From: Escherichia phage ECO319P1
Sequence record: OP172790
Direction: 5' to 3' (one strand)
Length of the DNA: 64,000 nucleotides
This document shows, piece after piece, positions 1 to 54,117 of this stretch. Position numbers and translations under genes: made by a program. Position 1 is the first letter of the stretch. Each line of letters opens with the position of its first letter. Under the pieces are notes generated by a model. The model ran no database searches, was not told where the DNA came from, and saw nothing but the letters and a program-made list of their open reading frames with translations.

Positions 1-594
1 AACCTCACTGTTGGTGCTAATTGGGGTATGATTAGCAAAACTGGTGATAGCAAAGCGGCTGGCTTCTTCAACCGTATGGCATCTGCTCTGGGTGCTGGAG
101 ATACAGTGAAAACCGCTGTTGACCTTGACCTGTCAATGGTCTTCGCTAACGCCAAAGGCGAACTGGTAGACATGTGCTACTACGGCAATAAGCGTCTGTT
201 CAGTGGTGCAGTTCTGCACTCTGGTGACGACCTCGTTGGTGACGACGAGCAGAACGAAGATGATAACGAACTGATTAAGTTCGAAGGCATGAAGGTTCCG
301 TTCGATGTTACCACTGTGTACGTTGTACTGAACTCCTTCCGCCATCAGATGTTCGATGAAATCCCATACATCGGCATCTCTTTCTACGAAGGTCTGGTGA
401 ACAAGGGCTCCAAAGGTCTGCGATTCGCTGAGGCTCGTGTTGAGAAAGAGAAAGAAGCTGCTGGCAAAGAGTGCTGCATCCTCGCTAAGATTGTCCGTAC
501 TGGCAAAGGCTGGAACGTGACTCCGCTGTTCGACTACACCTCGGACACCAATCTGCGCGACCTTGCTCGCACTGCAATTCGTAAGCACGGCTAA
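1..594 (+). CDS. TerD-domain protein, 5' end truncated by window edge
   Basis: Frame is open from nt 1 with no upstream stop; product shows DLD...GDD...GDDE acidic motifs and length typical of TerD-fold proteins. Confidence 0.65.
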   Translation, partial: NLTVGANWGMISKTGDSKAAGFFNRMASALGAGDTVKTAVDLDLSMVFANAKGELVDMCYYGNKRLFSGAVLHSGDDLVGDDEQNEDDNELIKFEGMKVPFDVTTVYVVLNSFRHQMFDEIPYIGISFYEGLVNKGSKGLRFAEARVEKEKEAAGKECCILAKIVRTGKGWNVTPLFDYTSDTNLRDLARTAIRKHG

Positions 595-653
595 TCGTGC
601 CAAGCCCACTTTAGGATAGAGGTGGGCAACAACTATAAGGAGAGTAATCCCCG

Positions 654-1079
654 ATGAGTTGGTTTATGTGCTGGTTAGCACTAACTCTTAACATTTACAC
701 GGAGGCAGGTGGAGAGGGTGAGCAAGGTATGAGGATGATTGCTGATGTAGCGGTCACTCGTACTACGCACAAAGATTACCCAGATAACATTAGCAAAGTT
801 ATTCTTCAACCGGGTCAATTTTCTTGGACTTATAACTTAAAGTCGAGGTCTGAGAAAGGATTAGTTGCTTATAATAAGCGTCTCTTAAAGTCTAAGAGAA
901 TGACTAATCCAAAAGAAAGAGAAGCATATGCCATAGCGATGAAAGTCGCGTACAGAGCTTTACAGCCGGGGTATAAACCCAAGTACAGGTATACTCACTT
1001 CTACAGTGGGACAGACAAGCCCAAGTGGGCTAAAAACAAACGTGCCGTCAAACACGGCAACCATTACTTTATCAAATAA
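654..1079 (+). CDS. SleB-like cell wall hydrolase
   Basis: AAGGAG RBS upstream of ATG; EAGGEGEQG...AVT.RT...LQPGQFSW motif pattern typical of SleB/Hydrolase_2 family; hydrophobic N-terminus. Confidence 0.65.
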   Translation: MSWFMCWLALTLNIYTEAGGEGEQGMRMIADVAVTRTTHKDYPDNISKVILQPGQFSWTYNLKSRSEKGLVAYNKRLLKSKRMTNPKEREAYAIAMKVAYRALQPGYKPKYRYTHFYSGTDKPKWAKNKRAVKHGNHYFIK

Positions 1080-1088
1080 GGATTCACA

Positions 1089-1301
1089 ATGTTCTCCTCC
1101 AACAAACCAACCTTCTCCTCGGCAATGAAGATGTTCACCAAAGCTCAGGAAGAACTGAAAGCTGCTGGTGAAGTGAATGCTGCCGAACTGGCAGAAGCCG
1201 AAGCCGCTGTAGCTGCTGCGAAAGAAGAACGTGATAACATCAATCGCGTTACCTCTTTCTTCGACAACCTGCTGGGTAAAGGCCCGGAGTTGACTAAGTA
1301 A
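1089..1301 (+). CDS. hypothetical protein (Ala/Glu-rich helical)
   Basis: AAGGA RBS, ATG start, tight packing with neighbours. Confidence 0.5.
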   Translation: MFSSNKPTFSSAMKMFTKAQEELKAAGEVNAAELAEAEAAVAAAKEERDNINRVTSFFDNLLGKGPELTK

Positions 1302-1849
1302 TGCGTAAAGTTGCAATCATTGGAGCCTGTATCGGCTCCTTGTTCCTTCTGAGTGGTTGTGATGATAACACTTCCAAGCTGACCGCTGACCAACAGTTCC
1401 AACTGAAACAGATGGAAATGCAGCAAGCTGAGAAGATGCGCAACCAACGTCATGAGTTGGAAATGGCTCGTGCCATGAATCCTGCTCCTGTTATTCAATC
1501 TGAGACTCGCTATGTTGAGTCAGAGCCACAGGTGATTTACCGCGATGTTCCAGCACAACCTGCACCTCAACCCCATTCTGTCAGCCCTGATAGCTATGGG
1601 TACAGTAGCAGCAATAGTGATTCTGGGAGCGGTATTGGCTCACACGTCGCAACGGCAGCCGTAGGTGCTGCTGCTGGCTATTATGCTGGCAAGTACACCT
1701 CAACGCCGAAAGGCCAGCAACAAGTACAGACGATGAAGTCTAAGACTAAATCAATGTACGACACTGGTAAGAAGAAAGCCTACACAGGCTATCGCTTTAC
1801 CAAAAGCAAAACAACCTCAGCGTATCGCTCATTCAAGAAACGAAAGTAA
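1301..1849 (+). CDS. putative lipoprotein
   Basis: N-terminal signal peptide ending in lipobox LLSGC; start overlaps upstream stop (TAATG); basic C-terminus. Confidence 0.6.
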   Translation: MRKVAIIGACIGSLFLLSGCDDNTSKLTADQQFQLKQMEMQQAEKMRNQRHELEMARAMNPAPVIQSETRYVESEPQVIYRDVPAQPAPQPHSVSPDSYGYSSSNSDSGSGIGSHVATAAVGAAAGYYAGKYTSTPKGQQQVQTMKSKTKSMYDTGKKKAYTGYRFTKSKTTSAYRSFKKRK

Positions 1850-1861
1850 CGGAGATTCAAC

Positions 1862-2230
1862 ATGAACCTGATTGAAGTACTGAAAGACCAACTGGATAAA
1901 GAAGGCGCGATTCTGGACAACGCAAAGCGTGACGATAAAAACGTTCGTGCTGCGATTCAAGTCTCGAAAGAGATTCGTAAAGTGCTGGCTGAAAACATTC
2001 GCGGCATCAAAGCGCAGATTAAAGAGTCTGACCGTGCATCGAATGGTGCTAAGTCAAGCCTGCTGCGTCGCTCTCTGGCGTTCTTCCGTGAACAGTACAA
2101 CGACCTGTTCGAAGAAATCTACATGCTTCGTGCTCAGAAGGGCATGATTACTTCCTATCTGAAAACTCAGACGGAACTGGTTGTGTCGCTGGATGCCGAA
2201 TGGGAGAAAGCGAAACGTGAAGCTCAGTAA
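1862..2230 (+). CDS. hypothetical protein
   Basis: GGAG RBS, ATG start, 122 aa ORF. Confidence 0.55.
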   Translation: MNLIEVLKDQLDKEGAILDNAKRDDKNVRAAIQVSKEIRKVLAENIRGIKAQIKESDRASNGAKSSLLRRSLAFFREQYNDLFEEIYMLRAQKGMITSYLKTQTELVVSLDAEWEKAKREAQ

Positions 2231-2465
2231 GTTCAACATCTTTAAGTTGTGCTTTGTAGCTGTGTTGGCGGCCTTAATGGCTGCCTTCTTCTACTTCCGT
2301 GGCATCGACTTCAAAGACTGTCTCATGGCGAAGTATGACCTTCAGCGTGAAACAACCTTCCGCATCCTGACTGGTGCTTGCACTACGAAGGGCAAAGACG
2401 GAAGTCTGATTTATGTTAAGCAACTTCGTGGCTTCGGCGATGATGTTGTTGACGACCATCAATAA
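2193..2465 (+). CDS. hypothetical small membrane protein (start uncertain)
   Basis: ORF with one predicted TM helix (LCFVAVLAALMAAFFYF); track start 2181 is TTG, alternative ATG 2193 or GTG 2214. Confidence 0.3.
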   Translation: MPNGRKRNVKLSKFNIFKLCFVAVLAALMAAFFYFRGIDFKDCLMAKYDLQRETTFRILTGACTTKGKDGSLIYVKQLRGFGDDVVDDHQ

Positions 2466-2475
2466 GAGGTGACAA

Positions 2476-3348
2476 ATGGTTTGGGCAGTTATTGAAAACC
2501 ACAAAGGCCAACGGGAAGATTTCCGTAAGCCGTGCTTTGGTTTCATGTCCTACATTCATCAGTGGTACGAAACTGACGAGTGGGACGACGAAGAGGACGA
2601 TTGGGAATACGAATACCTTGAAGGTTTCGAACCCGCCGAACTCAACCTCATGCACTACTTCCCTGATTTCCGCAACCATATGCCGAGTCAGGATTTGCCT
2701 GAGTTCCGTGAGAAGTATCTGCCTGTGCTGTTGGAAGCTGTGAAGCTTCTGCCTCAGTATTACTCGAACGTTGAGTACACTGCTCCAACTGATAGCACTC
2801 AGGAGACGTTTACGTTCGCCCTGCAAGATGCGAACATGCAAACGACAATCATCGGTGCTATGATGCTGCGTAACATTGCTCAGTATTCTGGTATGCGTCG
2901 CGTGTTCCGTCTTTGCGTTGACGCTGGCCTTGACCCTGTAACCTGCTTCGTTATGGGTAACATGTACAGCAGCAACTACTGCTCGTTTGGTGCTGATGCT
3001 GGTAAGTATCTGGCAAACCCTGTTCACTACGGTGACGAGTCAATCTTCCCAGATGAAACTCGCGCTTGTGATATCCAGGCGTTCATTGACGGTAAGCTCG
3101 GTCACATCTACCAAGGTGTGTGGGGCGATACTGAAAATGGTTATGGTCGTTATGGTGAGTATGACGGTGATACCGCACCTCGCTTTGAACGTACCGGTAA
3201 TCGTTCAACCATCACTGACACTCTGCTGTTGGCTGATGATTACGTTGACTCACCATTGCTGATGGATATCGAAATCGGTGTTTGTTCATCGGCTCGCTTC
3301 AGTGATGAAGAGTTGATTGTTCTTGCTGGTAAAATTACTGGTAAATAA
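2476..3348 (+). CDS. hypothetical protein, first gene of amidoligase cluster (acidic W/E/D-rich N-region)
   Basis: AGAGGTG RBS, ATG start, 290 aa; co-oriented and tightly spaced with downstream ligase genes. Confidence 0.6.
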   Translation: MVWAVIENHKGQREDFRKPCFGFMSYIHQWYETDEWDDEEDDWEYEYLEGFEPAELNLMHYFPDFRNHMPSQDLPEFREKYLPVLLEAVKLLPQYYSNVEYTAPTDSTQETFTFALQDANMQTTIIGAMMLRNIAQYSGMRRVFRLCVDAGLDPVTCFVMGNMYSSNYCSFGADAGKYLANPVHYGDESIFPDETRACDIQAFIDGKLGHIYQGVWGDTENGYGRYGEYDGDTAPRFERTGNRSTITDTLLLADDYVDSPLLMDIEIGVCSSARFSDEELIVLAGKITGK

Positions 3349-3359
3349 AGGATAAAACA

Positions 3360-4304
3360 ATGTCAGTAAAATTCGACGTAGTTTACAAGGATGGATTCAA
3401 ATTGAAAATGACCTCAATTTGTTTCGGTGTAATGGAGAAGGGGCGCTGGAATGAAATCAACGGGTATCGCAATATGCCCGCTGAGAATCATCAGGATGCA
3501 GACCAGCGCTTCATTCAGTTCTACACCAACGCTTACATTCACCCGATGTGGGCGTATGAAGAAGGTATTAAGCGCGATTGGCCTCGTGGTGAAGATAACC
3601 AAGAAGGTCGAAACAAAGCTTCGAAGAACTTCATCAATGAGATGAAAGAACTTCAGAAAGACATGCCGTTCCTGCAAGGGCTTGTCACCTTCCATCCATT
3701 GTTACACGTTGCCCGTGTGCATATCAAAAATCACACGGTTGACCAGATTATGCTGGCATTGTTTTTGGTACGTAACATGTGCCATTACAGCAACAACTGT
3801 TTCACTTACCGCTGGTTACGTGAGACATACAACATGCGTCCAATGCTGGCGGCAGTAATGTGCCATCAGTTCTCAATGGACTTAGGCTCGTTCGGGCGTC
3901 ATTCGTTCTCTCCAGCATGTCTGGGTGAGTACAACTGGATTAACCCCCAGACGTTCGGTAAAGAGTCGTTGCTTCGTTTCATGACCCATACGAAAGAAAC
4001 AGAATTCGAATATCGTCAGGGCATGTGGAAGGACAGTAAAGGTTATCGTCGTGACGACCACTTTGCTCGTAACGATGTTATCTTCGACAGCGAAATCGGC
4101 GGCTCGAACAAATACTGGAAGATGGTAGCACCATTCAGTATTCCGGGCGACGAAGCGATTAATGCCAATCAATGTAAAGACCGTTATAGCGGTATGGTGA
4201 TTGGTCGCAGTTGGAACCACGAACTGAGCCAAGGTGAAGTAGAGAACTACATCAGTGGTGTTCTCGAACTTCTGGCAGAAAACAATATCCCAGCAACTCT
4301 CTAA
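3360..4304 (+). CDS. hypothetical protein (amidoligase cluster)
   Basis: AAGGA RBS, ATG start, 314 aa, 11-nt spacing from upstream gene. Confidence 0.6.
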   Translation: MSVKFDVVYKDGFKLKMTSICFGVMEKGRWNEINGYRNMPAENHQDADQRFIQFYTNAYIHPMWAYEEGIKRDWPRGEDNQEGRNKASKNFINEMKELQKDMPFLQGLVTFHPLLHVARVHIKNHTVDQIMLALFLVRNMCHYSNNCFTYRWLRETYNMRPMLAAVMCHQFSMDLGSFGRHSFSPACLGEYNWINPQTFGKESLLRFMTHTKETEFEYRQGMWKDSKGYRRDDHFARNDVIFDSEIGGSNKYWKMVAPFSIPGDEAINANQCKDRYSGMVIGRSWNHELSQGEVENYISGVLELLAENNIPATL

Positions 4305-4316
4305 GGTAATAAAGAC

Positions 4317-5114
4317 ATGCGTAAGATTTACTTAGGTTCAGACCCAGAGCTGTTTACTCGTGATGCAAACGGCCTCGTATCATCTGTAGCTGGTAAGCTC
4401 GGTGCTGATAAGTATCACAAACGCCATGTCACGGACGACATTCGCATTCAGGAAGATAACGTGCTGGTTGAATTTGATATCAACCCGCATGGCACATTTG
4501 CAGGGTTCAACGATAACATGATGCGTGGTATCGCTGCCTGTAATGACGCTGCGAAATCTGTCGGTCACGAAGTTGACCTGACTATCTGCTCTCACGTTTT
4601 CAGCGATGCAGAGCTTCGTACTTTCCACAAAGACGCATTCGTGTTTGGCTGTGAGCCAGACTTCAATGCCCTGACTGGTTCTCGTAATGCGAAACCGGCT
4701 GCTGCGGATGTAGGTCTGCGTACTGCCGGTGGTCATATTCATATCGGTTATAACGAAGACCGCAACGTTGACTCTGAATCTCAGAAGATTCTGGGTGTAA
4801 TGTGTGATTACTTCCTCGGTATGCCAGCTATCCTTCTGGATGGTGACGACCGTCGTAAAGAACTGTATGGTAAAGCTGGAGCTTGCCGCTTCAAAACCTA
4901 CGGTATCGAGTATCGTGTTCTGTCCAACTTCTGGACTCTGGACGATAAGATGCGTCTGTGGGCTTGGGAACAGGCTCATAAAGCATACGACTTCACTGTT
5001 GGTGATGCAATGGTGTTGGCGTCAATTGTTGACCCGGAAGAAATTCAGCGTGTCATTAATAACAATGACAAGGCAATGGCTGAACATTACATCAAGCTGC
5101 TGGAGATTATGTAA
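4317..5114 (+). CDS. putative carboxylate-amine (COOH-NH2) ligase, amidoligase family paralog A
   Basis: Motifs GSDPELF (acidic pair), GGHIHIG (His-x-His), GIEYRV (Glu-x-Arg) matching the pattern of the neighbouring ligase paralog and of glutamine-synthetase-like amidoligases. Confidence 0.55.
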   Translation: MRKIYLGSDPELFTRDANGLVSSVAGKLGADKYHKRHVTDDIRIQEDNVLVEFDINPHGTFAGFNDNMMRGIAACNDAAKSVGHEVDLTICSHVFSDAELRTFHKDAFVFGCEPDFNALTGSRNAKPAAADVGLRTAGGHIHIGYNEDRNVDSESQKILGVMCDYFLGMPAILLDGDDRRKELYGKAGACRFKTYGIEYRVLSNFWTLDDKMRLWAWEQAHKAYDFTVGDAMVLASIVDPEEIQRVINNNDKAMAEHYIKLLEIM

Positions 5115-5692
5115 TGGCTTTACACGATGATTTTGCAATGTACTATAATGGTACATATGTTGGTTATCGTAAAGATGGGGATGTAGTCCCCTTCTACATC
5201 GAAGCGGTTGATACTGACCGCTCAATCTTTGATTACTCAGAAGCGTCTGAGTCAGAGATGTTCGGTGACCAAGCGCTGAGTGCGTTGACCTTCTACGGAA
5301 GTATCGACGGCAACCGTGCAACGATTAACCACGACGACCCGAATCTGGTTCTTGAAATGCCAGATAGTAAGTACATCCAGTTCCGTGGACGTTACTATTG
5401 GGTTCAATGGCGAGCGAACCGTTCCACTAAGAAGGGAATGGGTCAGCGTCGTCTCTCAGGCATTCCGCAATTCAACCATGAAGTCGCTCGTGCGATGTTC
5501 TCGGAGCGGTCTGCACCAAACGTAATCGCAGGATGCTTGTTACGTCAGAATAATGAACTTCACTACAAGGGTGTGGTGGTCGGTTCAATCAATGGCAACG
5601 AAGTTGTGTTGGTTTCCGAAGCTGCTCACCTGTTACGTTTTGTATCACGGGAGATGCAGGAATGCCAAGTTTCGGTAGCACAAGCGGGCTAA
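5114..5692 (+). CDS. hypothetical protein (amidoligase cluster)
   Basis: Start overlaps upstream stop (TAATG), GGAG RBS; 192 aa. Confidence 0.55.
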   Translation: MALHDDFAMYYNGTYVGYRKDGDVVPFYIEAVDTDRSIFDYSEASESEMFGDQALSALTFYGSIDGNRATINHDDPNLVLEMPDSKYIQFRGRYYWVQWRANRSTKKGMGQRRLSGIPQFNHEVARAMFSERSAPNVIAGCLLRQNNELHYKGVVVGSINGNEVVLVSEAAHLLRFVSREMQECQVSVAQAG

Positions 5693-7173
5693 GTGAGTCG
5701 TCATTAGCAACCCTCCGCGAAGCGGGGGTGATTGACTCAGAAGGTAACTGGTTAACTGGTAACATGCCTTCACCTTTTGGTGGAGGTTTGGTTGGTTATA
5801 ACACTGCTGATGTTATTCCTGACACACCACCACCAAGACCAGCACGGACAAGACACGATGGGCGACCATTGCGTTCAAGTTCGTATGCCGACATGTTCGG
5901 TGGTCTTCGTGCTCAGCCGGTTGCTATGGATGAAATGCCTGAGACTTCAGGTGATTATTATATTTCTGGTAATGTAGAGGCCGATTCAGAAATGCAAACT
6001 ATTGCGCAAATTGTTGGGCACCGTGCAACTTATCCAACTCTTGAGAAGCATCCGCTGATTGTAGGTACAAATTTGGCAGGTGTTGAGATTGAGTTGGAGG
6101 GCATCACTGCTCGTGCTCCACGTTTCAACTACTGGACAGCAAAAGGTGATGGCTCTCTCCGTAACCGTGGGATGGAATTTGTTTGTTCATCTCCGTGGGG
6201 TGGTCGTGACCTGTACAATGCAGCCATTGAAATTGATGGTTGGTTGTTCACTGCTCAGCCAGAAGATACTTGGCGTTGTTCTACTCACGTACACATTGAT
6301 GTTCGTGATATGACTGTGCCGCAGTTGAAGCGAATGATTCTGGCATATGCAGTTTACGAACGTATTCTGTTCAAATGCTCAGGCTTCCATCGTTACAAGA
6401 ATAACTTCTGTGTAGCGTTGGGCTTCGCTCAGGAGTTGGTAACAACTCTGTCTAATGCGTGGGCACTTCCTGATAACCAGTTCATCAGTCGTTTGACTGG
6501 AAATTGGGATAAGTATTCCAGCATCAACATGCTTCCGATTCAGCAGTTCGGCTCTGTCGAATTCCGTATCAGTGAAGCGAAGTGGCGCAAAGGTCGTCTG
6601 ATTCGTTTGGTTAACCGCTTCCTGTCTCTGAAAGAGATTGCGATGCAGCCATTCGAGGGTTCAGAGTCTGAATTCATTCAGATGCTGGTCAATACCCCGA
6701 TTAGCAAAATCATTCGTAAAGGTCTGCCGAAGGTTCTTCCAGATGCAGAGATGGATATCGAGATTGGTTATAAACTGGCTCACGATATCATTAGCATGGC
6801 GGCCTTGCGTCGCCTGTCTATCCGCCCTCTGGTTCCGAATCTGTCAGATGATTCACGACAGTTTAACGTTGAAATCTTCGAGCCGGGTTATGAGCATATT
6901 ATGACTCGTATCAACCGCTCAGATAATAACGTTGAGTTGCCTCGTGAAGCCCCTGCAACTATCAACTTTAGTTGGTGGTATGAAGTTGAGAATCTGATGC
7001 TTCAGATGGGTCATACCTACGAGCGCAGTTGGTTCACAGCATCAAGCAACAACCGTCAGATTCACTCACTGTTCGAAGAGTATTGTCGTGAACGTCGTGC
7101 TGAGCGTCGTCGTCAGGATGAAATCGTTGAACGTGAAGATGATGAAGACGATACCTCTCCAGAGTTCTGGTAA
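5662..7173 (+). CDS. putative carboxylate-amine (COOH-NH2) ligase, amidoligase family paralog B
   Basis: Motifs GVEIELEG, GDGSL, STHVHIDV, GSVEFRI shared with paralog A; N-terminal approx 110 aa low-complexity; start overlaps upstream gene so true start may be later. Confidence 0.6.
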   Translation: MPSFGSTSGLSESSLATLREAGVIDSEGNWLTGNMPSPFGGGLVGYNTADVIPDTPPPRPARTRHDGRPLRSSSYADMFGGLRAQPVAMDEMPETSGDYYISGNVEADSEMQTIAQIVGHRATYPTLEKHPLIVGTNLAGVEIELEGITARAPRFNYWTAKGDGSLRNRGMEFVCSSPWGGRDLYNAAIEIDGWLFTAQPEDTWRCSTHVHIDVRDMTVPQLKRMILAYAVYERILFKCSGFHRYKNNFCVALGFAQELVTTLSNAWALPDNQFISRLTGNWDKYSSINMLPIQQFGSVEFRISEAKWRKGRLIRLVNRFLSLKEIAMQPFEGSESEFIQMLVNTPISKIIRKGLPKVLPDAEMDIEIGYKLAHDIISMAALRRLSIRPLVPNLSDDSRQFNVEIFEPGYEHIMTRINRSDNNVELPREAPATINFSWWYEVENLMLQMGHTYERSWFTASSNNRQIHSLFEEYCRERRAERRRQDEIVEREDDEDDTSPEFW

Positions 7174-7232
7174 GAATAAATGTGGGGTGTAAAAGCCCCA
7201 ACTTCAATGTAAATAGATGAAAGGATTTTTGT

Positions 7233-9203
7233 ATGTGTGGGATTGTTCTCGCTGGTGGTAACTTAATCGCTCGTGATGTTGAACTGTTCGGTCGTCTACT
7301 GTATGCAGATATCGTTCGTGGTGAGCATTCAACGGGTGTGTTCGCAGGGTTTCGTCCTTTTGGTCATGACCCAATCCTGAAACTTCGTAAAGCCGCTGTT
7401 CCGGCAGATATCTTCTTACGCCGCAAAGAGTTATGGGGTGAAGTGCGTGAACACGCAGTTCCTTCAAAGACTGTTGCAAATTCTTTCACAACTGCCTATC
7501 CGAAATTTATGGTAGGCCACAACCGTTATGCAACTCAGGGTGCAATTAACGATACGAACGCTCACCCGTTCAACCACGGTAAAATCACTCTGGTTCACAA
7601 TGGTACATTGACTGACCAGTCTCTGCTCCCAGACCATAAGAACTTCGCTGTTGACAGTGAAAACGTCGCATGGTCAATCAACAAAATCGGTATTGATGAA
7701 ACTATTCAGAAATTGAATGGTGCATTCACTCTGGTTTGGCATAACGCCGAAGACAGCACGGTGAACATCATCCGTAACGAAGAACGTCCATTCCATCTGG
7801 TTGAAACAACTGGTGGTGATTGGTTCGGTGCTTCGGAAGAAGACATGCTTCTGTGGTTAATTAACCGCAAGAAGTTTGCTCCAACAATCAAACGTCACTT
7901 TGAATGTGAAGTAGGTGTTCAGTACGTCTTTGACGTATCCGAAGGCTTCAAGTTCAAGGAGGAACGGAAGCATACGCTTCCAACCTTTCGCTCATATTCC
8001 TACACTGGAAGAACTGGTGGTTATTGGTATGACCAGTGGGATGATGACTATGGGTACGGAAACGGACGAGGAACTTCAACAACTTCTCGCAACCAATCCA
8101 ATAGCCAGAGCTTTAGCTCAAGCTCTTCTAGCGTAACACCGGACAGCCGTTACAAGCAGTTCAATGATATGCTGGAAAGCCACGGCATCAACGTCAAAAT
8201 GGGTGAGCAACTCCGCTTCGAGAGCTTCCAGTTTGACCAGTATCCTAAGTCTCTGGGCAAGGGTAAAATGACCGGGTATACTGGCACTGGCGAGTATATT
8301 GAGGTTCAGGCTCACGGCACTGATATGGGCATCTTTGTTGAAGGTGCTGAGTACGATGGTAAGATTATCTCGTGCTATGAGCAGAATTACATTCTGACAA
8401 TTATCGTTCAAGACCCAAAACCTGCTCATGTTAATCAGACACTGACCCTCGGTGATTTGGTTAACTCGGCGGCAAAGGAAACTCCAATTCCTGATACAGG
8501 GATTAGTCAGGAAGAGTTGAACGAAGAGTACTACGGTGACGAGGAAGAAGACGACGGCAACGAAGTCGAAGTAACCTTGAACGGTGAGGTGTACTCAAAA
8601 AAGGAATGGGAGGGAAACGACTCATTAAATACTTGCGCAAACTGTTCCTCTCCAATCCCCTTCGACGACGTGATTGATACGGTTGTCGATAATGGCGCTG
8701 CATTCTGCCATGATTGCGCAAAGCATTACAACCTGTTACCCCCTGAGACGGAGGAGCCAATTGCTCCTAACCGTTTCGTCTGCCAAAGCTGTGCCAACGA
8801 ATTGCCGGAAGATTTAGAATCGGCAAAGCCGGGTGTCTGCATTCCTTGTCTTTGCGCTGTAACTAAAGACAACAATACGGAAATGGCACGTCAACAGTTA
8901 ATCGAAAAGTACGACCGTTGGGAATCCAATTTGATGCCAGAGGAAGTGGTCACTCCACTGCTTCCGAAACCAACTGAAGTCTCTCTCGGTGAAATTTCAC
9001 TGATTCGCAAGAAGTTGAAAAACAACTTGCTGGTTACTGTTAAGCAGTGGATGAAGATGAACAACTGTGGTTGGTGTCAAAAGCCAATCCAGTGGGTTGA
9101 TGCTGAAGCCACTGAATTTGTTGGTCAGCAGCCATGCTGTCCGGGATGCTCCAAGAAATTAGAGATGGGCATCCTTCCAAAACCTATCAATAAGGATAAA
9201 TGA
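7233..9203 (+). CDS. class-II glutamine amidotransferase-like (Ntn, Cys2) protein with C-terminal multi-CxxC zinc-ribbon region
   Basis: Begins MCGIVLAGG (nucleophile Cys directly after Met) with NRYATQG...HPF motifs of Ntn GATase-II; Ser-rich linker; C-terminal CxxC pairs (CANC..CHDC, CQSC..CIPC, CGWC..CPGC). Confidence 0.7.
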   Translation: MCGIVLAGGNLIARDVELFGRLLYADIVRGEHSTGVFAGFRPFGHDPILKLRKAAVPADIFLRRKELWGEVREHAVPSKTVANSFTTAYPKFMVGHNRYATQGAINDTNAHPFNHGKITLVHNGTLTDQSLLPDHKNFAVDSENVAWSINKIGIDETIQKLNGAFTLVWHNAEDSTVNIIRNEERPFHLVETTGGDWFGASEEDMLLWLINRKKFAPTIKRHFECEVGVQYVFDVSEGFKFKEERKHTLPTFRSYSYTGRTGGYWYDQWDDDYGYGNGRGTSTTSRNQSNSQSFSSSSSSVTPDSRYKQFNDMLESHGINVKMGEQLRFESFQFDQYPKSLGKGKMTGYTGTGEYIEVQAHGTDMGIFVEGAEYDGKIISCYEQNYILTIIVQDPKPAHVNQTLTLGDLVNSAAKETPIPDTGISQEELNEEYYGDEEEDDGNEVEVTLNGEVYSKKEWEGNDSLNTCANCSSPIPFDDVIDTVVDNGAAFCHDCAKHYNLLPPETEEPIAPNRFVCQSCANELPEDLESAKPGVCIPCLCAVTKDNNTEMARQQLIEKYDRWESNLMPEEVVTPLLPKPTEVSLGEISLIRKKLKNNLLVTVKQWMKMNNCGWCQKPIQWVDAEATEFVGQQPCCPGCSKKLEMGILPKPINKDK

Positions 9204-9204
9204 T

Positions 9205-9438
9205 ATGGATAATTCAATGAGTGAAGTGAAGGTTTTGCGTCTGGATTCACCTGTGGTGGTTCGAAAAGTTCCAATGACTGACTTCGGTAGTGATATGCTC
9301 CGAGCCATTCGTCGCTTCCAAACTGAGGCGTATGAACGTGCAAAAGGTCAGAAGGTGGAAATCCCTTATCCTGTGTGTATTCACATGATGATGTCGGATT
9401 ACTGCAAGCTGAAAGGCATCCAAGTAACCAATGGCTGA
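9205..9438 (+). CDS. hypothetical protein
   Basis: AAGGA RBS 8 nt upstream of ATG, immediately after upstream stop. Confidence 0.45.
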   Translation: MDNSMSEVKVLRLDSPVVVRKVPMTDFGSDMLRAIRRFQTEAYERAKGQKVEIPYPVCIHMMMSDYCKLKGIQVTNG

Positions 9439-9643
9439 TAAAGATGTCGAAAAGGCTCGCAAGGAAAGCGAGTCTTGGCACAACCGTCAGATTGGAAACT
9501 TGTTAGAAGAAGAGTGGGAGTACGCAAAACAAATGGGTACTCAGGAGGGCCAAGAGGCCATCTGGTATCTCACTCTTTCTTATGAAACACTGGAAGCAGA
9601 AATCATGGAACACAAACGTGATATCCGTGAACTTCATCTTTGA
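9431..9643 (+). CDS. hypothetical protein
   Basis: ORF overlapping upstream stop; weak RBS. Confidence 0.4.
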   Translation: MADKDVEKARKESESWHNRQIGNLLEEEWEYAKQMGTQEGQEAIWYLTLSYETLEAEIMEHKRDIRELHL

Positions 9644-9713
9644 GTGAGTTATTTATAGGGTGTCGGTGAAGCGCCCTATGTGAAATTCATTCTCAACTAA
9701 AAGGTACTTATCA

Positions 9714-28418: not shown

Positions 28419-28618
28419 GTCTTGCAAAAGAGTTCATGGACTTTATCGTTGACAATGAAATACCACTATCAGACAGGGCTGCTGCCCTGATTGGTAAGCT
28501 TGGTGTTGCTGACGAAGAACTTGAGTGGCTTTCCTGTCTCAATGCTGCTGGTGTTGATAATTGGGAAGGCTGTGACTATGCTGCTGACTTGCTGAGGGAG
28601 AGAACAGATGAATGTTAA
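28415..28618 (+). CDS. hypothetical protein
   Basis: ATG 28415 overlapping upstream stop; track start 28406 is TTG. Confidence 0.4.
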   Translation: MSLAKEFMDFIVDNEIPLSDRAAALIGKLGVADEELEWLSCLNAAGVDNWEGCDYAADLLRERTDEC

Positions 28619-29000
28619 ACTAAGTAAGAAAGGTCAGGCTCTTCTGGCTACTCGTAAACAGGCACTTCAAGATGTGATTAATAAGTCCTTTGAGAAGATG
28701 CCGTTCGATATCACAATTCTCGCAAGTACAGTGCGTACTGAAGAGGAGCAACGAGCTAACATAGCCAAAGGTGTGTCTTGGACAATGAAGTCTAAGCACC
28801 TCACTGGAGAGGCCGTGGACATGGCTCCTTATCCGGTTGACTGGAACAACCTTGAACGGTTTGTACAGATGGCTGAAGTGGTTCTGACTACTGCCAAAGA
28901 AATGGGTATTCCCATTGTCTGGGGTGGTACTTGGAAAGAAACCACTGAAGGTTGGAAACAGAATAAACGGTTCGATGGGCCTCATTTCGAACTGAAATAA
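28608..29000 (+). CDS. endolysin, L-alanyl-D-glutamate peptidase (M15/VanY-like)
   Basis: GGGAGAG RBS; SKHLTGEAVDMAPYP and VWGGTW blocks as in T5-type endolysins. Confidence 0.8.
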   Translation: MNVKLSKKGQALLATRKQALQDVINKSFEKMPFDITILASTVRTEEEQRANIAKGVSWTMKSKHLTGEAVDMAPYPVDWNNLERFVQMAEVVLTTAKEMGIPIVWGGTWKETTEGWKQNKRFDGPHFELK

Positions 29001-29027: not shown

Positions 29028-29483
29028 ATGGCAAGAAAACCCACTGTAATTGATAACTCATTCCTTGTTGATATGTTCAATTCTATTGACGGTATCGGAG
29101 ATTTGGGAAGTTGGATGCAAGATGTAATTTATGGAAGTGCTCGTCTTGGTCATTCTAACCCATCAGCAGCAGTGGCAATTTTCAAGGCTTTAGCGACTCT
29201 TCCAGTTATTAGCTTTGACACTGTAAAGCACTTCGTAAACAACAGGTCAGAGGTAATTGACCAACGTACATTCAGTGACAGACATGTTTATGCCTTCATG
29301 AACAGAGTCTTATCAGCACGGAAAGGTATTGAGTTTTACTATGAACGTAAGACTGGTCAGAAATTTCATAGCATTGAACCAGTGGAAGATGTTGATTCTA
29401 CTGATTTTGTCTATGCTGATGGTGTAAAAGCCAGTGAATTAGTTTACGAAAATGTTGTAAGAAATCATGGAACCGAACACTAA
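29028..29483 (+). CDS. hypothetical protein
   Basis: Track start 29004 lies inside the conserved motif; ATG 29028 chosen instead. Confidence 0.5.
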   Translation: MARKPTVIDNSFLVDMFNSIDGIGDLGSWMQDVIYGSARLGHSNPSAAVAIFKALATLPVISFDTVKHFVNNRSEVIDQRTFSDRHVYAFMNRVLSARKGIEFYYERKTGQKFHSIEPVEDVDSTDFVYADGVKASELVYENVVRNHGTEH

Positions 29484-29558
29484 TGTATAGTGTCTAATGA
29501 GCGAAGGACGTTTTAACTGAGCCTTCACAATTGAGTTTTATATAAGGAAATATATCAT

Positions 29559-36293: not shown

Positions 36294-36731
36294 ATGGCAA
36301 GAAAGTTTAAGAAGCGCTATGCACCAAAGAAGCAGAATCTAATCAAGGGAACACCTTATGATTCACTGTTCGAGAAGGAAATTCACGAGAGGCTCCTTCA
36401 AGACGCACGTTTTCACGATAAATCGGATAGAGTTGACTATAAAGTTCCCCATTATTACGAACCCGACTTCGTGCTTGAAAAGGACGGTAAGACCTTTTAT
36501 ATTGAGACGAAAGGGAGATTTCGTGATTCGAGCGAGGCTAGGAAATATCTATTTGTTCGGGAGAATTTGCCGGAAGATGCAGAGCTAGTCTTCATTTGGG
36601 AGAAAGCCAACACTGTATTCCCGTTCGCTAAGAAGCGCAAAGACGGAACTAAGGCGACTCACGGAGAGTGGGCAGACAAGAATGGTTTTCGTAATTGGGT
36701 ACAGACGGAGTTTACAGTGGAGAAATTATGA
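36294..36731 (+). CDS. endonuclease I (Holliday junction resolvase, T7 gp3-like)
   Basis: GGAGG RBS; YEPDFVLEKDGKTFYIETKG parallels T7 endonuclease I YTPDFLLPNGIFVETKG. Confidence 0.8.
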   Translation: MARKFKKRYAPKKQNLIKGTPYDSLFEKEIHERLLQDARFHDKSDRVDYKVPHYYEPDFVLEKDGKTFYIETKGRFRDSSEARKYLFVRENLPEDAELVFIWEKANTVFPFAKKRKDGTKATHGEWADKNGFRNWVQTEFTVEKL

Positions 36732-37171
36732 TTAAATATATTGTCGCTGTTCTTGCAATAGTGGCATCATACACAGGGACATTCTATCTGGGAGTAAGTC
36801 ACGGTGTGATTGAAACTCAGAATGGGATGTTAAAGAAGAATACTGAACAGTTAGAAGATTTGATTTCTAATGTTCAAACAGTTGACACGAAACTGAATAA
36901 CAATGCTATGGTTCAAGAAGAAATCAAAGCGAAGCTCAGTTTGAGACAGAATGAAGTAACGAAGGAGGTTATTAAATATGCTCAAAGGCCTGATGCTAAC
37001 GATGTTGTGCTTGATGATGATTGGGTGCGGGTCTACAACGATTCCAACGCCTCAGCAGGAACCGGAGATACCAGTTCCAGCCAAGTACAAGGTCAAACCG
37101 GAAGAGCCAGTAGCGATGCCTCTAAGCCCCTCAAAATTGAAGTCTCTGGAAGTAGTAAAGGACAACAATGA
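36728..37171 (+). CDS. Rz: i-spanin (Rz-like)
   Basis: N-terminal TM helix then helical periplasmic domain; ATG overlaps endonuclease stop (ATGA); contains embedded Rz1 frame. Confidence 0.6.
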   Translation: MIKYIVAVLAIVASYTGTFYLGVSHGVIETQNGMLKKNTEQLEDLISNVQTVDTKLNNNAMVQEEIKAKLSLRQNEVTKEVIKYAQRPDANDVVLDDDWVRVYNDSNASAGTGDTSSSQVQGQTGRASSDASKPLKIEVSGSSKGQQ

Positions 37172-37247
37172 TGCTTGGGCACGGCTGAGACAGCGATATC
37201 TTGATTTGCTCGAATGGACTGAATCTGTTAAGCATACCAGAAAATAA
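36978..37247 (+). CDS. Rz1: o-spanin (Rz1-like outer membrane lipoprotein), embedded in +1 frame of Rz
   Basis: Strong AAGGAGG RBS; signal peptide with lipobox MIGC; Pro-rich; starts inside Rz and extends past it. Confidence 0.65.
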   Translation: MLKGLMLTMLCLMMIGCGSTTIPTPQQEPEIPVPAKYKVKPEEPVAMPLSPSKLKSLEVVKDNNDAWARLRQRYLDLLEWTESVKHTRK

Positions 37248-47567: not shown

Positions 47568-48446
47568 TTATGCAGTACGACGGAACATGTAAACCACAAT
47601 ATATGGTTGGATGTTGTTGTGTTTTTGGTTACCACCCGTGGTCTGTACACCACCAGTAATCTGGAGTGAGTGTTCATGAGCACCATCAGTTGTAGTACGA
47701 TAAATACCACCATTACCACCGTGAGAACGAGCATCATAGTTAATGTAACGTTCTTTATAGTTAAATGCTTCCAAACCATCATCACCCATGAACAAGTGAT
47801 AGTGAGCACCGTTAGAAAGTGCACGACCACCAATATCATGTGGGTGTGAGTGAGCAGGCATTTCACCAGTAGTTAGTGTGTGATAATATTTACCACCTTG
47901 TGCCAGAACAGTGTTGTAGTTAATAGAATCAGTACCATCGTTACCAACACCATAACCAACAAGAACACGACCCGGAGCAAACTGCTGCCAAGTACCGAAA
48001 CCAAACAGGTCGGCTGGGTTTGTTGCAGTCGCTGAAATGTAGATAGAACCTACAGGCCATGATGCCACCATACCACCATTACGTTCCAGATAACGACGAG
48101 ATACCGCATCATCAAGACCAGCATCACCAGCACGAGGCAGTGGGACACCAGTTACAACGTTTTTATTGGTATTGATACCATCTTTGTTGAAGTTAATGGT
48201 CTTAGAAGTACCAGTCATTAAGAAAGTTTTGTTACAGCTAACGGAGTCAGCATCGAACTTCAAGTTTGCGTCTAACAAGTTCATAGTATCAGAACTGATA
48301 GTAAGCTTCTTATTAAAGCTTGAGAAAGTGTTAGTCAGAGTGGTTTTGATAAGACGAATGTGGTCGTCACCCTCTTTGATTAAGTCACCGCTCAGAGGCC
48401 AAGAAGTATTAAGTTCGCTGACAAATCCAGCCTTCTCTACCGTCAT
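47568..48446 (-). CDS. tail fibre protein with phage tail-collar domain
   Basis: GGGAG RBS; C-terminal GEMPAHSHP motif typical of tail-collar domain. Confidence 0.65.
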   Translation of the reverse strand: MTVEKAGFVSELNTSWPLSGDLIKEGDDHIRLIKTTLTNTFSSFNKKLTISSDTMNLLDANLKFDADSVSCNKTFLMTGTSKTINFNKDGINTNKNVVTGVPLPRAGDAGLDDAVSRRYLERNGGMVASWPVGSIYISATATNPADLFGFGTWQQFAPGRVLVGYGVGNDGTDSINYNTVLAQGGKYYHTLTTGEMPAHSHPHDIGGRALSNGAHYHLFMGDDGLEAFNYKERYINYDARSHGGNGGIYRTTTDGAHEHSLQITGGVQTTGGNQKHNNIQPYIVVYMFRRTA

Positions 48447-48694
48447 TTATGTTTCTCCCGTTGGTTCAAATTATTTACTAAATCAGAGAGTGTTTTAATA
48501 GTTTCTGATTGAACTGCCTGAGTCTTATCAATCCTATTCAGAATCTCCCTCGTTGTGTTAACGATGCTCCCCTGTTCAGCCTGTGTGCTTTTGAGAATCT
48601 GTACATCCACATATGTGTTTATACCGACACCAATCGAAGCGACAGATAACGAGGTGGCTACACCGATAAGAATATTTCTTAGTGCGTCTTCCAT
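48443..48694 (-). CDS. hypothetical protein with N-terminal TM segment
   Basis: ATG start; stop overlaps next ATG (ATGA). Confidence 0.45.
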   Translation of the reverse strand: MEDALRNILIGVATSLSVASIGVGINTYVDVQILKSTQAEQGSIVNTTREILNRIDKTQAVQSETIKTLSDLVNNLNQREKHK

Positions 48695-53638: not shown

Positions 53639-53821
53639 TTATTTCTTGGGGTAATTTTCCTCAATTTTCTCGATGAATTCATCATCAATTGTGGTCGGTG
53701 TTTTATTTGCCAACCACTTAGCAATTTTAAAGAACACCCACTTAATAGTGGGCTCTCCAAAGATAGCTATCAATAAATTTTCACCAAAGAGAATTAAGGC
53801 CTTAATCAGAAAGGCGTACAT
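53639..53821 (-). CDS. small membrane protein (60 aa; holin candidate)
   Basis: GGGAGA RBS; ATG 53821 overlaps upstream stop; hydrophobic helices. Confidence 0.4.
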   Translation of the reverse strand: MYAFLIKALILFGENLLIAIFGEPTIKWVFFKIAKWLANKTPTTIDDEFIEKIEENYPKK

Positions 53822-54117
53822 TAGAAATCTCCCGGATATGGCATCTCTTCCCACCAAGTCTTAGAACCATCAGACAGTGGAATACCACTCATAGCTGGCT
53901 GGTTAATATACTGACTAAATGCTGCGAGAGCACGACGACGAAATTGTCGAGGATAATTGAATCGACGCAAATTGTCATTAGCATTGTCCTCATTCAAGGA
54001 GAAAGCAATGATTGCCTTGATTCGGTTTTGTTTGAAACGAGAAGACCAAAATGCAAGAGCTTCAGGAGTTTCAACAGGATAGTTAAGCTTATACAGTGGT
54101 GATGGTACATCAGCCAT
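53821..54117 (-). CDS. hypothetical protein
   Basis: AAGGAG RBS 8 nt before ATG at 54117 (track start 54156 falls within a hairpin). Confidence 0.5.
   Translation of the reverse strand: MADVPSPLYKLNYPVETPEALAFWSSRFKQNRIKAIIAFSLNEDNANDNLRRFNYPRQFRRRALAAFSQYINQPAMSGIPLSDGSKTWWEEMPYPGDF

What the first reader, a model, noticed from the sequence alone, without database searches (positions are those of the whole stretch)
654..1849. Early-region SleB-like cell-wall hydrolase followed by a lipoprotein
A SleB-type hydrolase sits far from the lysis genes (endolysin at 28.6 kb, spanins at 36.7 kb) and next to a lipobox lipoprotein. This looks less like end-of-cycle lysis than envelope remodelling at entry or superinfection exclusion.
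Basis: inference. Interest (0 to 1): 0.4.

Follow-up and report, generated by a model that had tools for sequence, protein, structure and literature searches.

The report
Spare endolysin beside an accessory lipoprotein
A phage related to Cronobacter phage GAP52 carries, in its early gene block, a small SleB-type cell-wall-cutting enzyme with no export signal and, two genes on, an inner-membrane lipoprotein of unknown function. The enzyme is most likely an ordinary second lysis enzyme, and the two genes are not a functional pair.

Summary
Window 654-1079 encodes a 141-aa PF07486 (SleB/CwlJ-type) hydrolase: Pfam E 1.6e-18, AlphaFold pLDDT 92, and the only solved-structure matches are SleB catalytic domains. 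The catalytic Glu is kept. Window 1301-1849 encodes a lipobox lipoprotein (LLSGC, Asp at +2, which predicts inner-membrane retention). The M15 endolysin (28608-29000) and the spanin pair (36728-37247) are real.

It has no signal or SAR segment, whereas T5- and rV5-type homologues carry Sec signals, so it cannot reach the wall before the membrane is breached. This phage's lysis genes are scattered, so distance from them says little. A signal-less PF07486 protein of vibriophage Vp670 (CwlQ) behaves as a holin-dependent endolysin. The hydrolase and the M15 enzyme co-occur in every sequenced relative checked.

The lipoprotein is not an obligate partner. It is absent from 7-11 and CsaP_009, lies 4-5 kb away in other relatives, and occurs without the hydrolase elsewhere. 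Superinfection exclusion remains plausible for it but is untested.

Verdict: an ordinary, already-annotated second endolysin plus an uncharacterised accessory lipoprotein. Low novelty.

The parts
28..594 (+). TerD-domain protein, the upstream neighbour. It is the last gene of a phage TerC/TerD block whose earlier genes (seen in GAP52) would lie before the window's left edge.
   Evidence: PF02342 E 1.3e-11; PHROG 5698; GAP52 annotation gp018-gp022
604..627 (+). Hairpin in the intergenic region upstream of the hydrolase gene, with no U-tract. It is followed by a very conserved 5' leader and Shine-Dalgarno sequence (AAGGAGAG, 637-644).
   Evidence: RNAfold dG -20 kcal/mol, z -2.2. Relatives have different hairpins at the same position, and the leader is nearly invariant. 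The 7-11 record annotates a 'terminator' there.
654..1079 (+). SleB/CwlJ-type (PF07486) peptidoglycan hydrolase, 141 aa, pI 10, with no export signal. The catalytic Glu17 codon is at 702-704.
   Evidence: dN/dS 0.21 against GAP52
1089..1301 (+). Conserved acidic helical 70-aa protein of unknown function. Its stop overlaps the lipoprotein start.
   Evidence: PHROG 26686 E 2.9e-37; homologues in GAP52, A24 and 7-11-like phages, probably also CsaP_009; dN/dS 0.06
1301..1849 (+). Lipoprotein, 182 aa. Signal peptide 1301-1357; lipobox Cys20 at 1358-1360 followed by Asp-Asp; conserved helix about 1376-1474; variable Pro/Ser linker; small-xxx-small glycine zipper 1628-1690; very basic tail 1706-1846.
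2217..2465 (+). Small (82 aa, GTG start) protein with an N-terminal signal-anchor-like segment, in the same early block. It matches no family.
28608..29000 (+). M15 (T5-type L-alanyl-D-glutamate peptidase family) endolysin. It is conserved together with the SleB-like gene in all relatives checked.
36728..37171 (+). i-spanin (N-terminal transmembrane segment plus a periplasmic coiled region).
   Evidence: PHROG 8821 E 2.5e-37
36978..37247 (+). o-spanin, overlapping the i-spanin gene. Lipobox MIGC with Gly at +2 predicts outer-membrane sorting.
   Evidence: PHROG 1267 E 6.3e-13

Best explanation
The 141-aa protein is an active, soluble, cytoplasmic peptidoglycan glycan-strand cleaving enzyme of the SleB/CwlJ family, probably a lytic transglycosylase as SleB is. 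It is made from the sigma70-driven early block and accumulates harmlessly. It reaches the wall only when the still unidentified holin opens the inner membrane at the end of the cycle. There it cuts glycan strands alongside the M15 peptidase, which cuts the peptide stems. In short, it is a second, canonical holin-dependent endolysin. The lipoprotein two genes downstream is a separate accessory gene. It is lipid-anchored on the periplasmic face of the inner membrane (Asp at +2) and may re-insert through a glycine-zipper helix, leaving a basic tail in the cytoplasm. My best guess is that it protects or closes the infected cell's envelope, either by superinfection exclusion or as part of the phage's Ter-type membrane module. 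It does not act with the hydrolase. Shown here: family membership, fold, conserved catalytic Glu, absence of an export signal, purifying selection, co-conservation with M15, the lipobox and its conservation, and non-obligate linkage of the two genes. Inferred: enzymatic activity and bond specificity, holin dependence, timing, lipoprotein topology and its function.
For: Family and fold. Glu17, Tyr15, Arg36 and Phe56 are invariant from SleB to the phage homologues. No signal: the ORF starts at helix 1, an in-frame stop lies 6 nt upstream, and KD19 is 0.84. T5-type (DT57C gp061) and rV5-type (Murica gp002) homologues do carry Sec signal peptides. Kuravirus forms also lack a signal. Functional precedent: the Vp670 CwlQ PF07486 protein is harmless alone and lytic with its holin. 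Annotators of GAP52, 7-11, CsaP_009 and BUCT695 already call the orthologue an endolysin. Both the M15 and the SleB-like gene are present in GAP52, A24, 7-11, SE131, BUCT695 and CsaP_009. dN/dS is 0.21. 7-11 shows no shut-off of sigma70 transcription, so early-block products keep accumulating (PMC8948821). Lipoprotein: the lipobox is conserved, Asp at +2 occurs in most homologues, helix 1 and the tail are under very strong constraint (dN about 0 at dS 0.38) and the linker is free to vary. Its distribution is accessory and its position relative to the hydrolase varies. A distant relative occupies a prophage moron-like site.
Against: No holin was identified in the window, so the release route is assumed. 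If the M15 enzyme suffices for lysis, the strict conservation of a second enzyme across Grimontviridae, Kuravirus, T5-like and rV5-like phages is not obviously explained by redundancy. The T5 and rV5 versions are secreted, which hints at a role before lysis in those phages. No recognisable wall-degrading domain was found in the six large structural-module proteins scanned here, so an entry enzyme is unaccounted for. The lipoprotein's function rests only on architecture and distribution. Its model is of low confidence (pLDDT 52) and the glycine-zipper segment is only weakly hydrophobic (about 0.87 on the Kyte-Doolittle scale, calculated by hand).
Confidence: 0.55

Rival explanations
1. One reading: the hydrolase and the lipoprotein act together early in infection to remodel the envelope or exclude superinfecting phages.
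For: Both lie in the early block next to TerC/TerD-type genes, and plasmid ter operons are known to confer phage-inhibition and colicin-resistance phenotypes (established knowledge; the GAP52 gp018 note). The T5- and rV5-type homologues are secreted, and CB7_83 is toxic on expression (PMC7344957).
Against: This hydrolase has no export signal. The two genes are not a conserved pair: the lipoprotein is absent from 7-11-like phages and CsaP_009, lies 4-5 kb away in BUCT695 and L016, and occurs without the hydrolase in L017 and in a prophage. There are no PADLOC hits.
Confidence: 0.1
2. The hydrolase is packaged in the virion and digests the wall locally during DNA ejection, possibly doubling as a lysis enzyme as PRD1 P15 does (established knowledge).
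For: No peptidoglycan-degrading domain was detected in the large structural and ejection proteins of this phage. SleB-fold domains do occur inside very large (about 1000-1300 aa) phage proteins (PMC5512222).
Against: The gene lies in the early block about 36 kb from the structural module. The protein is a bare catalytic domain with no attachment region. The SU10 homologue was not among 34 proteins detected in a crude phage preparation.
Confidence: 0.07
3. The lipoprotein is the missing membrane-lesion component (holin- or antiholin-like) that lets the adjacent hydrolase out. It would be a lipid-anchored protein with one glycine-zipper transmembrane helix and a highly charged C-terminal tail.
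For: No holin is recognisable in this phage group. A charged C-terminal tail and a small-xxx-small zipper (S110, S114, A118, G122, G126, G130) are holin- or pinholin-like traits (pinholin comparison from established knowledge). It lies close to an endolysin gene. The tail is perfectly conserved against GAP52.
Against: It is absent from 7-11 and Privateer-type relatives that have the same two endolysins and spanins. The zipper segment is too weakly hydrophobic for a confident transmembrane call. Relatives occur far from any hydrolase. No lipobox holin is known.
Confidence: 0.08
4. The SleB-like protein has lost or changed its function, for example to cytoplasmic binding or processing of muropeptides or precursors linked to the neighbouring GlmS-like, amidoligase and NAD-salvage genes, and does not take part in lysis.
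For: It sits inside a metabolic and amidoligase early block. It carries a family-specific helical insertion of about 30 residues (about residues 59-90) absent from SleB and the T5 type. It remains conserved although an M15 endolysin is present.
Against: The catalytic Glu and the other family-invariant residues are intact and under purifying selection. No cytoplasmic substrate is known for the family. CwlQ provides a precedent for lysis.
Confidence: 0.05

Closest known systems
CwlQ of Vibrio phage Vp670 (PF07486 endolysin; PMC6180450)
   Same: A small (129 aa) stand-alone PF07486 domain with no signal peptide, encoded away from the holin. It is harmless when expressed alone and bursts cells when co-expressed with the holin. 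tblastn detects homology (H43).
   Different: Only about 33% identity over half the protein. CwlQ is reported as the only endolysin candidate of its phage, whereas this phage also has an M15 endolysin.
Bacillus SleB catalytic domain (PDB 4FET, 4F55)
   Same: Same fold (Foldseek probability 1.0, TM 0.60-0.68). The aligned motif Y-x-E-(S/A)-x-G-E includes the Glu that I take, from memory of the SleB structure papers (PMC3415495 is not held), to be catalytic.
   Different: No N-terminal PG_binding_1 domain and no signal peptide. It scores 26 bits against the 236.5-bit cut-off of the SleB equivalog TIGR02869. It has an extra helical insertion of about 30 residues. The host has no muramic-delta-lactam cortex, so substrate recognition must differ.
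T5.083-type and rV5-type 'SleB-like' proteins (DT57C gp061, Murica gp002, CB7_83, CR3_087)
   Same: The same family, also encoded in early regions of virulent enterobacterial phages that have another endolysin (M15 in T5-likes). The duplication was noted in PMC11180984.
   Different: Those carry cleavable Sec-type signal peptides, and CB7_83 is toxic on expression. The protein here and its Kuravirus and Grimontviridae relatives have none.
Orthologues already annotated as 'endolysin': GAP52 gp023, 7-11 gp111, CsaP_009 ORF25, BUCT695 UIW10497; phiEco32 phi32_117 (hypothetical)
   Same: 87% identical to GAP52 gp023, with the same synteny.
   Different: None of these has been tested. phi32_117 is shorter (129 aa) and is annotated only as hypothetical.
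Superinfection-exclusion membrane proteins: T5 Llp, phi80/N15 Cor, S. thermophilus TP-J34 Ltp (lipoproteins), and T4 Imm (established knowledge)
   Same: The lipoprotein is phage-encoded, expressed from the early block, envelope-located, and patchily distributed like a moron. Like Ltp and Imm, it is predicted to sit at the cytoplasmic membrane.
   Different: No sequence or profile similarity was found (Pfam, PHROG, NCBIfam, PADLOC). The architecture (helix, disordered linker, glycine zipper, long basic tail) is unlike any of them. No phenotype is known.
Unimolecular spanin (T1 gp11 type; established knowledge)
   Same: An N-terminal lipobox plus a C-proximal hydrophobic segment in a single polypeptide.
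   Different: Asp-Asp after the lipid-modified Cys predicts inner-membrane retention, so it would not bridge the two membranes. It has a 50-residue basic tail after the hydrophobic segment. The phage already has an i/o-spanin pair.

Membership tests
Pfam PF07486 Hydrolase_2 (SleB/CwlJ cell-wall hydrolase domain) | Profile HMM score above the gathering threshold | tested here: met
   67.6 bits against a cut-off of 27, E 1.6e-18, covering profile positions 1-99 of 100
Pfam PF07486 Hydrolase_2 (SleB/CwlJ cell-wall hydrolase domain) | SleB catalytic-domain fold | tested here: met
   AF2 pLDDT 92.2. The only significant PDB hits are 4FET and 4F55. 37 BFVD hits at E<=0.001; all those that carry a name are SleB-type cell-wall hydrolases or endolysins.
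Pfam PF07486 Hydrolase_2 (SleB/CwlJ cell-wall hydrolase domain) | Catalytic glutamate at the end of helix 1 | tested here: met
   Glu17 is invariant in 17 close homologues and in the alignment with T5-, rV5- and phiEco32-type proteins and B. cereus SleB
Pfam PF07486 Hydrolase_2 (SleB/CwlJ cell-wall hydrolase domain) | Muralytic (lytic transglycosylase) activity | not testable with these tools
   Needs a zymogram and muropeptide analysis (1,6-anhydroMurNAc products)
Bona fide spore cortex-lytic enzyme SleB (TIGR02869) | Equivalog score, N-terminal PG_binding_1 domain and signal peptide | tested here: not met
   26.2 bits against a cut-off of 236.5. No PF01471 domain, unlike the Bacillus SleB proteins. 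It is SleB-like, not SleB.
Canonical (holin-dependent, soluble) endolysin | Wall-degrading catalytic domain with no secretion signal | tested here: met
Canonical (holin-dependent, soluble) endolysin | Release through holin lesions and a requirement for lysis | not testable with these tools
   No holin was recognised in the window. The precedent comes only from CwlQ.
SAR (signal-anchor-release) endolysin | N-terminal weakly hydrophobic transmembrane segment of about 20 residues with a basic N-terminal flank | tested here: not met
   The hydrophobic run is only 13 residues (W3-Y15) with no N-terminal Lys or Arg. KD19 is 0.84. The segment is modelled as helix 1 of the catalytic domain (H3-18, pLDDT 92).
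Virion-associated peptidoglycan hydrolase | Encoded in the structural module, fused to a structural protein, or detected in particles | tested here: not met
   It is in the early block and is a bare domain. The SU10 proteome lacks the homologue. This phage's own virions have not been examined.
Bacterial lipoprotein (Lgt/LspA substrate) | Basic n-region, hydrophobic h-region and lipobox [LVI][ASTVI][GAS]C | tested here: met
   MRK-VAIIGACIGSLFL-LSGC. The Cys is conserved in all full-length homologues and in the distant relatives.
Bacterial lipoprotein (Lgt/LspA substrate) | Inner-membrane retention signal (Asp at +2, Enterobacteriaceae rule) | tested here: met
   The sequence is C-D-D, and most close homologues have C-D. 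The o-spanin of the same phage has C-G. The rule comes from established knowledge; actual sorting was not tested.
Spanins (o-spanin or u-spanin) | Outer-membrane sorting, plus a partner i-spanin or a C-terminal transmembrane segment that bridges the periplasm | tested here: not met
   Asp at +2 predicts inner-membrane retention. The neighbouring 122-aa protein has no transmembrane segment (KD19 0.43). A genuine spanin pair exists at 36.7 kb.
Holin | At least one transmembrane segment, a charged C-terminus, and presence wherever the cognate endolysin is present | tested here: inconclusive
   The charged tail is present. The zipper helix (res 110-130) is only about 0.87 on the KD scale. The gene is missing from 7-11 and CsaP_009, which keep both endolysins.
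Known superinfection-exclusion proteins or defence families | Sequence or profile similarity | tested here: not met
   No PADLOC hit. PHROG 5101 'unknown function' only at E 0.002. No Pfam family above threshold.

The most novel reading that the evidence does not exclude
The conserved small SleB-type enzyme found in the early regions of T5-like, rV5-like, phiEco32-like and 7-11/GAP52-like phages, always alongside a different endolysin, may not be a back-up lysis enzyme. It may have a distinct conserved job in wall or envelope management during infection. In the GAP52 group, which has no recognisable holin, the neighbouring inner-membrane lipoprotein (glycine zipper plus invariant basic tail) could be a new lipid-anchored membrane-lesion or gating protein, or a component of a phage-borne Ter-type envelope module.
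Probability: 0.1. Interest if true: 0.6.

Novelty: new member of a known kind. Interest (0 to 1): 0.25.

Why it matters
The practical value is correct annotation. This phage group has two wall-degrading enzymes with different bond specificities, and the SleB-type one should not be read as an entry or exclusion factor on position alone. The comparison shows a clean split within the family: secreted forms in T5- and rV5-like phages, and signal-less forms in phiEco32- and 7-11/GAP52-like phages. The role of the second enzyme has not been tested in the literature I could search, so a double-knockout experiment would be cheap and informative. The lipoprotein defines a small uncharacterised phage family. 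It recurs in Ter, NAD-salvage and amidoligase early blocks and once in a prophage moron-like site, which makes it a reasonable candidate to screen for exclusion or membrane-protection phenotypes. None of this is surprising to a phage-lysis specialist.

Tried and rejected
1. The phiEco32 sigma (gp36) promoter motif TAATGTATA occurs no more often than chance (10 found against 13.7 expected). The 7-11 paper also says this group uses a different motif. I replaced it with a loosened core of the 7-11 motif, GTAA-N19-CTA (15 found against 6 expected, none on the + strand before 15644).

2. The generic sigma70 and terminator scan of 1-12000 showed no enrichment.

3. Horizontal-transfer signal: the hydrolase gene has 41.8% GC against 44.2% for the window, which is not anomalous.

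4. The SAR-endolysin idea for the hydrophobic N-terminus was rejected.

5. u-spanin or o-spanin status for the lipoprotein was rejected on Asp at +2 and the presence of a real spanin pair.

6. The AlphaFold model of the lipoprotein was too poor (pLDDT 52) for any fold search.

7. The exhaustive profile search for the lipoprotein found only 19 cluster representatives, none with a known domain above threshold.

8. PADLOC, NCBIfam and Rfam gave nothing for the region, and repeats in 1-3000 were only chance-level.

9. The profile search seeded with an alignment that included Bacillus SleB was swamped by Bacillus SleB and added little.

10. Literature searches for T5.083 or T5p081 found nothing. 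The SleB structure paper PMC3415495 is not held, so the identity of the catalytic Glu rests on my knowledge of that work plus the alignment.

11. The holin search of the window was inconclusive.
Full report
WHAT THE WINDOW IS. The first 6 kb match Cronobacter phages GAP52 and A24 (Grimontviridae, Crifsvirus) at 86-87% nucleotide identity with conserved gene order. The lipoprotein is 100% identical to a hypothetical protein of Escherichia phage ECO319P1. The group is related to Salmonella phage 7-11 and, more distantly, to phiEco32. Genes at 1-37250 run on the + strand (early, metabolic and replication genes). Structural genes run on the - strand from 37274.

THE OBSERVATION. The coordinates given are exact ORF boundaries. 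ORF 654-1079 (141 aa) has a strong Shine-Dalgarno sequence and an in-frame stop 6 nt upstream of its ATG, so it cannot be longer. It hits PF07486 Hydrolase_2 at E 1.6e-18 and PHROG 938 'endolysin'. An AlphaFold2 model built from 17 homologues has pLDDT 92. Its only significant matches among solved structures are the catalytic domains of B. anthracis and B. cereus SleB. Among viral models, every named match is a 'cell wall hydrolase SleB', 'endolysin' or similar entry. Glu17 in the motif Y-T-E-A-G-G-E aligns with the Glu of Y-G-E-S-R-G-E in SleB. It is invariant in all homologues examined, as are Tyr15, Arg36 and Phe56. The protein is not a true SleB. It lacks the PG_binding_1 domain and scores 26 bits against the 236.5-bit equivalog cut-off.

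ORF 1301-1849 (182 aa) begins MRKVAIIGACIGSLFLLSGC|DD, a textbook lipobox conserved in its homologues. It is a conserved family (PHROG 26686) whose stop overlaps the lipoprotein start. The distant lysis genes exist as stated: an M15 peptidase endolysin at 28608-29000 and an overlapping i/o-spanin pair at 36728-37247.

TEMPORAL CLASS. Lavysh et al. (PMC8948821) showed three things for 7-11. Its late promoters have the consensus GTAAtg-N16-aCTA. Its early genes are read from sigma70 promoters at the far end of the leftward gene block. There is no shut-off of sigma70 transcription. A loosened core of that motif (GTAA-N19-CTA) is enriched in the window (15 found against 6 expected). On the + strand it first appears at 15644, and none occurs in the 17.7 kb GAP52 stretch around the orthologue. 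The orthologues are 7-11 gp111 and phiEco32 phi32_117, both inside the blocks defined as early. 'Early region' is therefore a fair description, although it was not measured for this phage. A hairpin without a U-tract lies just upstream of the gene (604-627). Relatives have different hairpins at the same place, followed by a nearly invariant leader. The 7-11 record calls it a terminator. I did not resolve what it does.

IS THE HYDROLASE EXPORTED? The N-terminus (MSWFMCWLALTLNIYTE) is hydrophobic, but the run is only 13 residues long and has no basic flank. It averages 0.84 on the Kyte-Doolittle scale over 19 residues, and it is modelled with high confidence as helix 1 of the catalytic domain, ending in the catalytic Glu. 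It is neither a cleavable signal nor a SAR segment. By contrast, the T5-type homologue (DT57C gp061, the counterpart of T5.083) starts MKAALLLVAALTFSFSSQA|SH, and the rV5-type (Murica gp002) starts MKIKIFAIILSALLSLPVVAAP. Both are obvious Sec signals placed before the same helix. Kuravirus homologues (129-136 aa) are signal-less like this one. This enzyme therefore stays in the cytoplasm until the membrane is breached. That rules out early envelope remodelling by any known route.

IS POSITION INFORMATIVE? Not much. In this phage the M15 endolysin and the spanins are 8 kb apart, and neither has a holin next to it. I could not identify a holin at all. The SU10 paper notes that the phiEco32-type holin and lysozyme are missing from 7-11 and GAP52. 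Soluble endolysins are harmless until the holin fires, so early synthesis is tolerated. T7 gp3.5 and the T5 lysis genes are examples from established knowledge. Experimentally, CwlQ of vibriophage Vp670 is a 129-aa signal-less PF07486 protein. It had no effect when expressed alone and caused cell bursting together with the holin (PMC6180450).

CONSERVATION. The SleB-like gene and the M15 gene are both found in GAP52, A24, 7-11, SE131, BUCT695 and CsaP_009. The M15 gene is also in the Privateer-type Proteus phages. tblastn finds the SleB-like protein in 874 phage records, dominated by Escherichia, Salmonella and Klebsiella phages, including T5-like and rV5-like genomes. In T5-likes it again accompanies an M15 endolysin that sits next to the holin, as noted in PMC11180984. 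Against GAP52 the gene shows dN/dS 0.21. The simplest reading is two enzymes with complementary bond specificities, glycan strand and peptide stem, acting together at lysis. Why both are so consistently retained is not explained by my data.

THE LIPOPROTEIN. Close homologues share five features: the lipobox with Asp (rarely Asn) at +2; a conserved helix (KLTADQQFQLKQMEM...HELEMARA); a variable Pro/Ser-rich linker; a small-xxx-small zipper (S110, S114, A118, G122, G126, G130); and a very basic tail. Against GAP52, the helix and the tail are almost frozen (dN 0.01 and 0.00 at dS 0.4-0.6) while the linker drifts. By the Enterobacteriaceae sorting rule (established knowledge; AcrA also begins C-D-D), Asp at +2 predicts inner-membrane retention. 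The o-spanin of the same phage has Gly at +2. The AlphaFold model is of low confidence and shows only three helices and a disordered linker.

An exhaustive profile search of 1.8 billion representatives found just 19 relatives. The distant ones keep the same layout with longer Lys-rich tails and no domain above threshold. The contexts are as follows.
- Adjacent to the hydrolase and the 70-aa gene: the window, GAP52 and an 81-kb relative.
- 4-5 kb from a Hydrolase_2 gene: Aeromonas phage BUCT695 and a 102-kb metagenomic contig.
- No hydrolase within 5 kb: a further relative.
- Alone on the opposite strand among prophage packaging genes in a bacterial chromosome.
- Absent: 7-11-like phages and CsaP_009, which keep the hydrolase.

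TerC or TerD genes are frequent neighbours. The lipoprotein is therefore an accessory gene of the early block, not a partner of the hydrolase. An exclusion or membrane-protection role fits its placement and distribution but is a guess. A holin-like role is conceivable, given the zipper, the charged tail and the lack of a known holin. Its absence from close relatives with the same lysis enzymes argues against that.

ENTRY ENZYME? Pfam and PHROG found no wall-degrading domain in the six large structural-module proteins scanned, so the question of how this phage crosses the wall is open. SleB-fold domains do occur inside giant phage proteins elsewhere. However, this protein is a bare domain encoded 36 kb from the structural genes. 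The phiEco32-type homologue was not detected in a crude SU10 preparation that did pick up several early proteins. I give this reading a low probability.

COMPARISON WITH THE KNOWN, AND NOVELTY. The orthologues are already annotated 'endolysin' in GAP52, 7-11, CsaP_009 and BUCT695. The presence of a SleB-type 'second endolysin far from the holin' has been remarked for T5-like phages (PMC11180984) and for Vequintavirinae (PMC7344957, PMC10793346). What this analysis adds is threefold: the split between signal-bearing and signal-less forms, the strict co-conservation with M15 in this family, and the demonstration that the lipoprotein is an independent accessory gene of a small unnamed family. That makes the finding a new member of a known kind and of modest interest.

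Noticed in passing
window 604-653: A stable hairpin without a U-tract lies upstream of the hydrolase gene. It is followed by a 5' leader (CAACTATAAGGAGAG[A/T]AATCCCCGATGAG) that is almost invariant between this phage, GAP52, an 81-kb relative and a 7-11-like phage, although the encoded proteins are only 57% identical. Relatives have unrelated hairpins at the same spot, and the 7-11 record calls it a terminator. It could be a processing, stability or attenuation element.
   Followed up: partly
window 2217-2465 (+): An 82-aa ORF (GVG start GTG, overlapping the end of the 122-aa gene) has a classic basic-then-hydrophobic N-terminus (KLSKFNIFKLCFVAVLAALMAAFFYF). It is a third envelope-targeted product in this early block, it matches no family, and the GAP52 record annotates a shorter version.
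   Followed up: partly
window 48443-48694 (-) and 53639-53857 (-): No holin is recognisable in the window. The only small single-TM candidates lie inside the structural module: an 83-aa protein (PHROG 13258 'virion structural protein', with a weak XhlA/haemolysin-like hit) and a 72-aa protein (PHROG 402, unknown function). The holin of the 7-11/GAP52 group appears to be unidentified.
   Followed up: partly
L011 3920-4369 (DT57C gp061, T5.083 homologue); L012 2884-3384 (Murica gp002): The T5-like and rV5-like SleB-type proteins carry Sec signal peptides and are encoded in early regions (in Murica, immediately upstream of rIIA). A secreted wall hydrolase made early is odd and seems to be unstudied.
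   Followed up: partly
window 1-594 and GAP52 locus L001 3804-6594: These phages carry their own TerC and two TerD genes directly upstream of the hydrolase, after PRPP synthetase and NAMPT genes. TerD is present in GAP52-, BUCT695- and Privateer-type phages but not in 7-11-like ones. Plasmid ter operons are known for phage-inhibition and colicin-resistance phenotypes, so this block may be the better exclusion candidate.
   Followed up: partly
window 37274-60581 (-): None of the six large structural-module proteins scanned (1304, 985, 814, 578, 549 and 412 aa) shows a recognisable peptidoglycan-degrading domain by Pfam or PHROG. The 412-aa protein is labelled a DNA ejection protein and has an S74 chaperone-like C-terminal stretch.
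   Followed up: no
window 1089-1301 (+): The 70-aa acidic (pI 5.05) helical protein is the most constrained gene of the trio (dN/dS 0.06). It stays next to the basic (pI 10) hydrolase in GAP52-, 7-11- and probably CsaP_009-type phages. It is a possible binding partner or regulator of the enzyme.
   Followed up: partly
window 18701-18709 and 29481-29489 (+): Two exact copies of the phiEco32 sigma-factor promoter element TAATGTATA occur on the coding strand. The second overlaps a 7-11-type late motif at 29457-29482, just upstream of the 29559 gene. The overall count is at chance level, so this may mean nothing.
   Followed up: no
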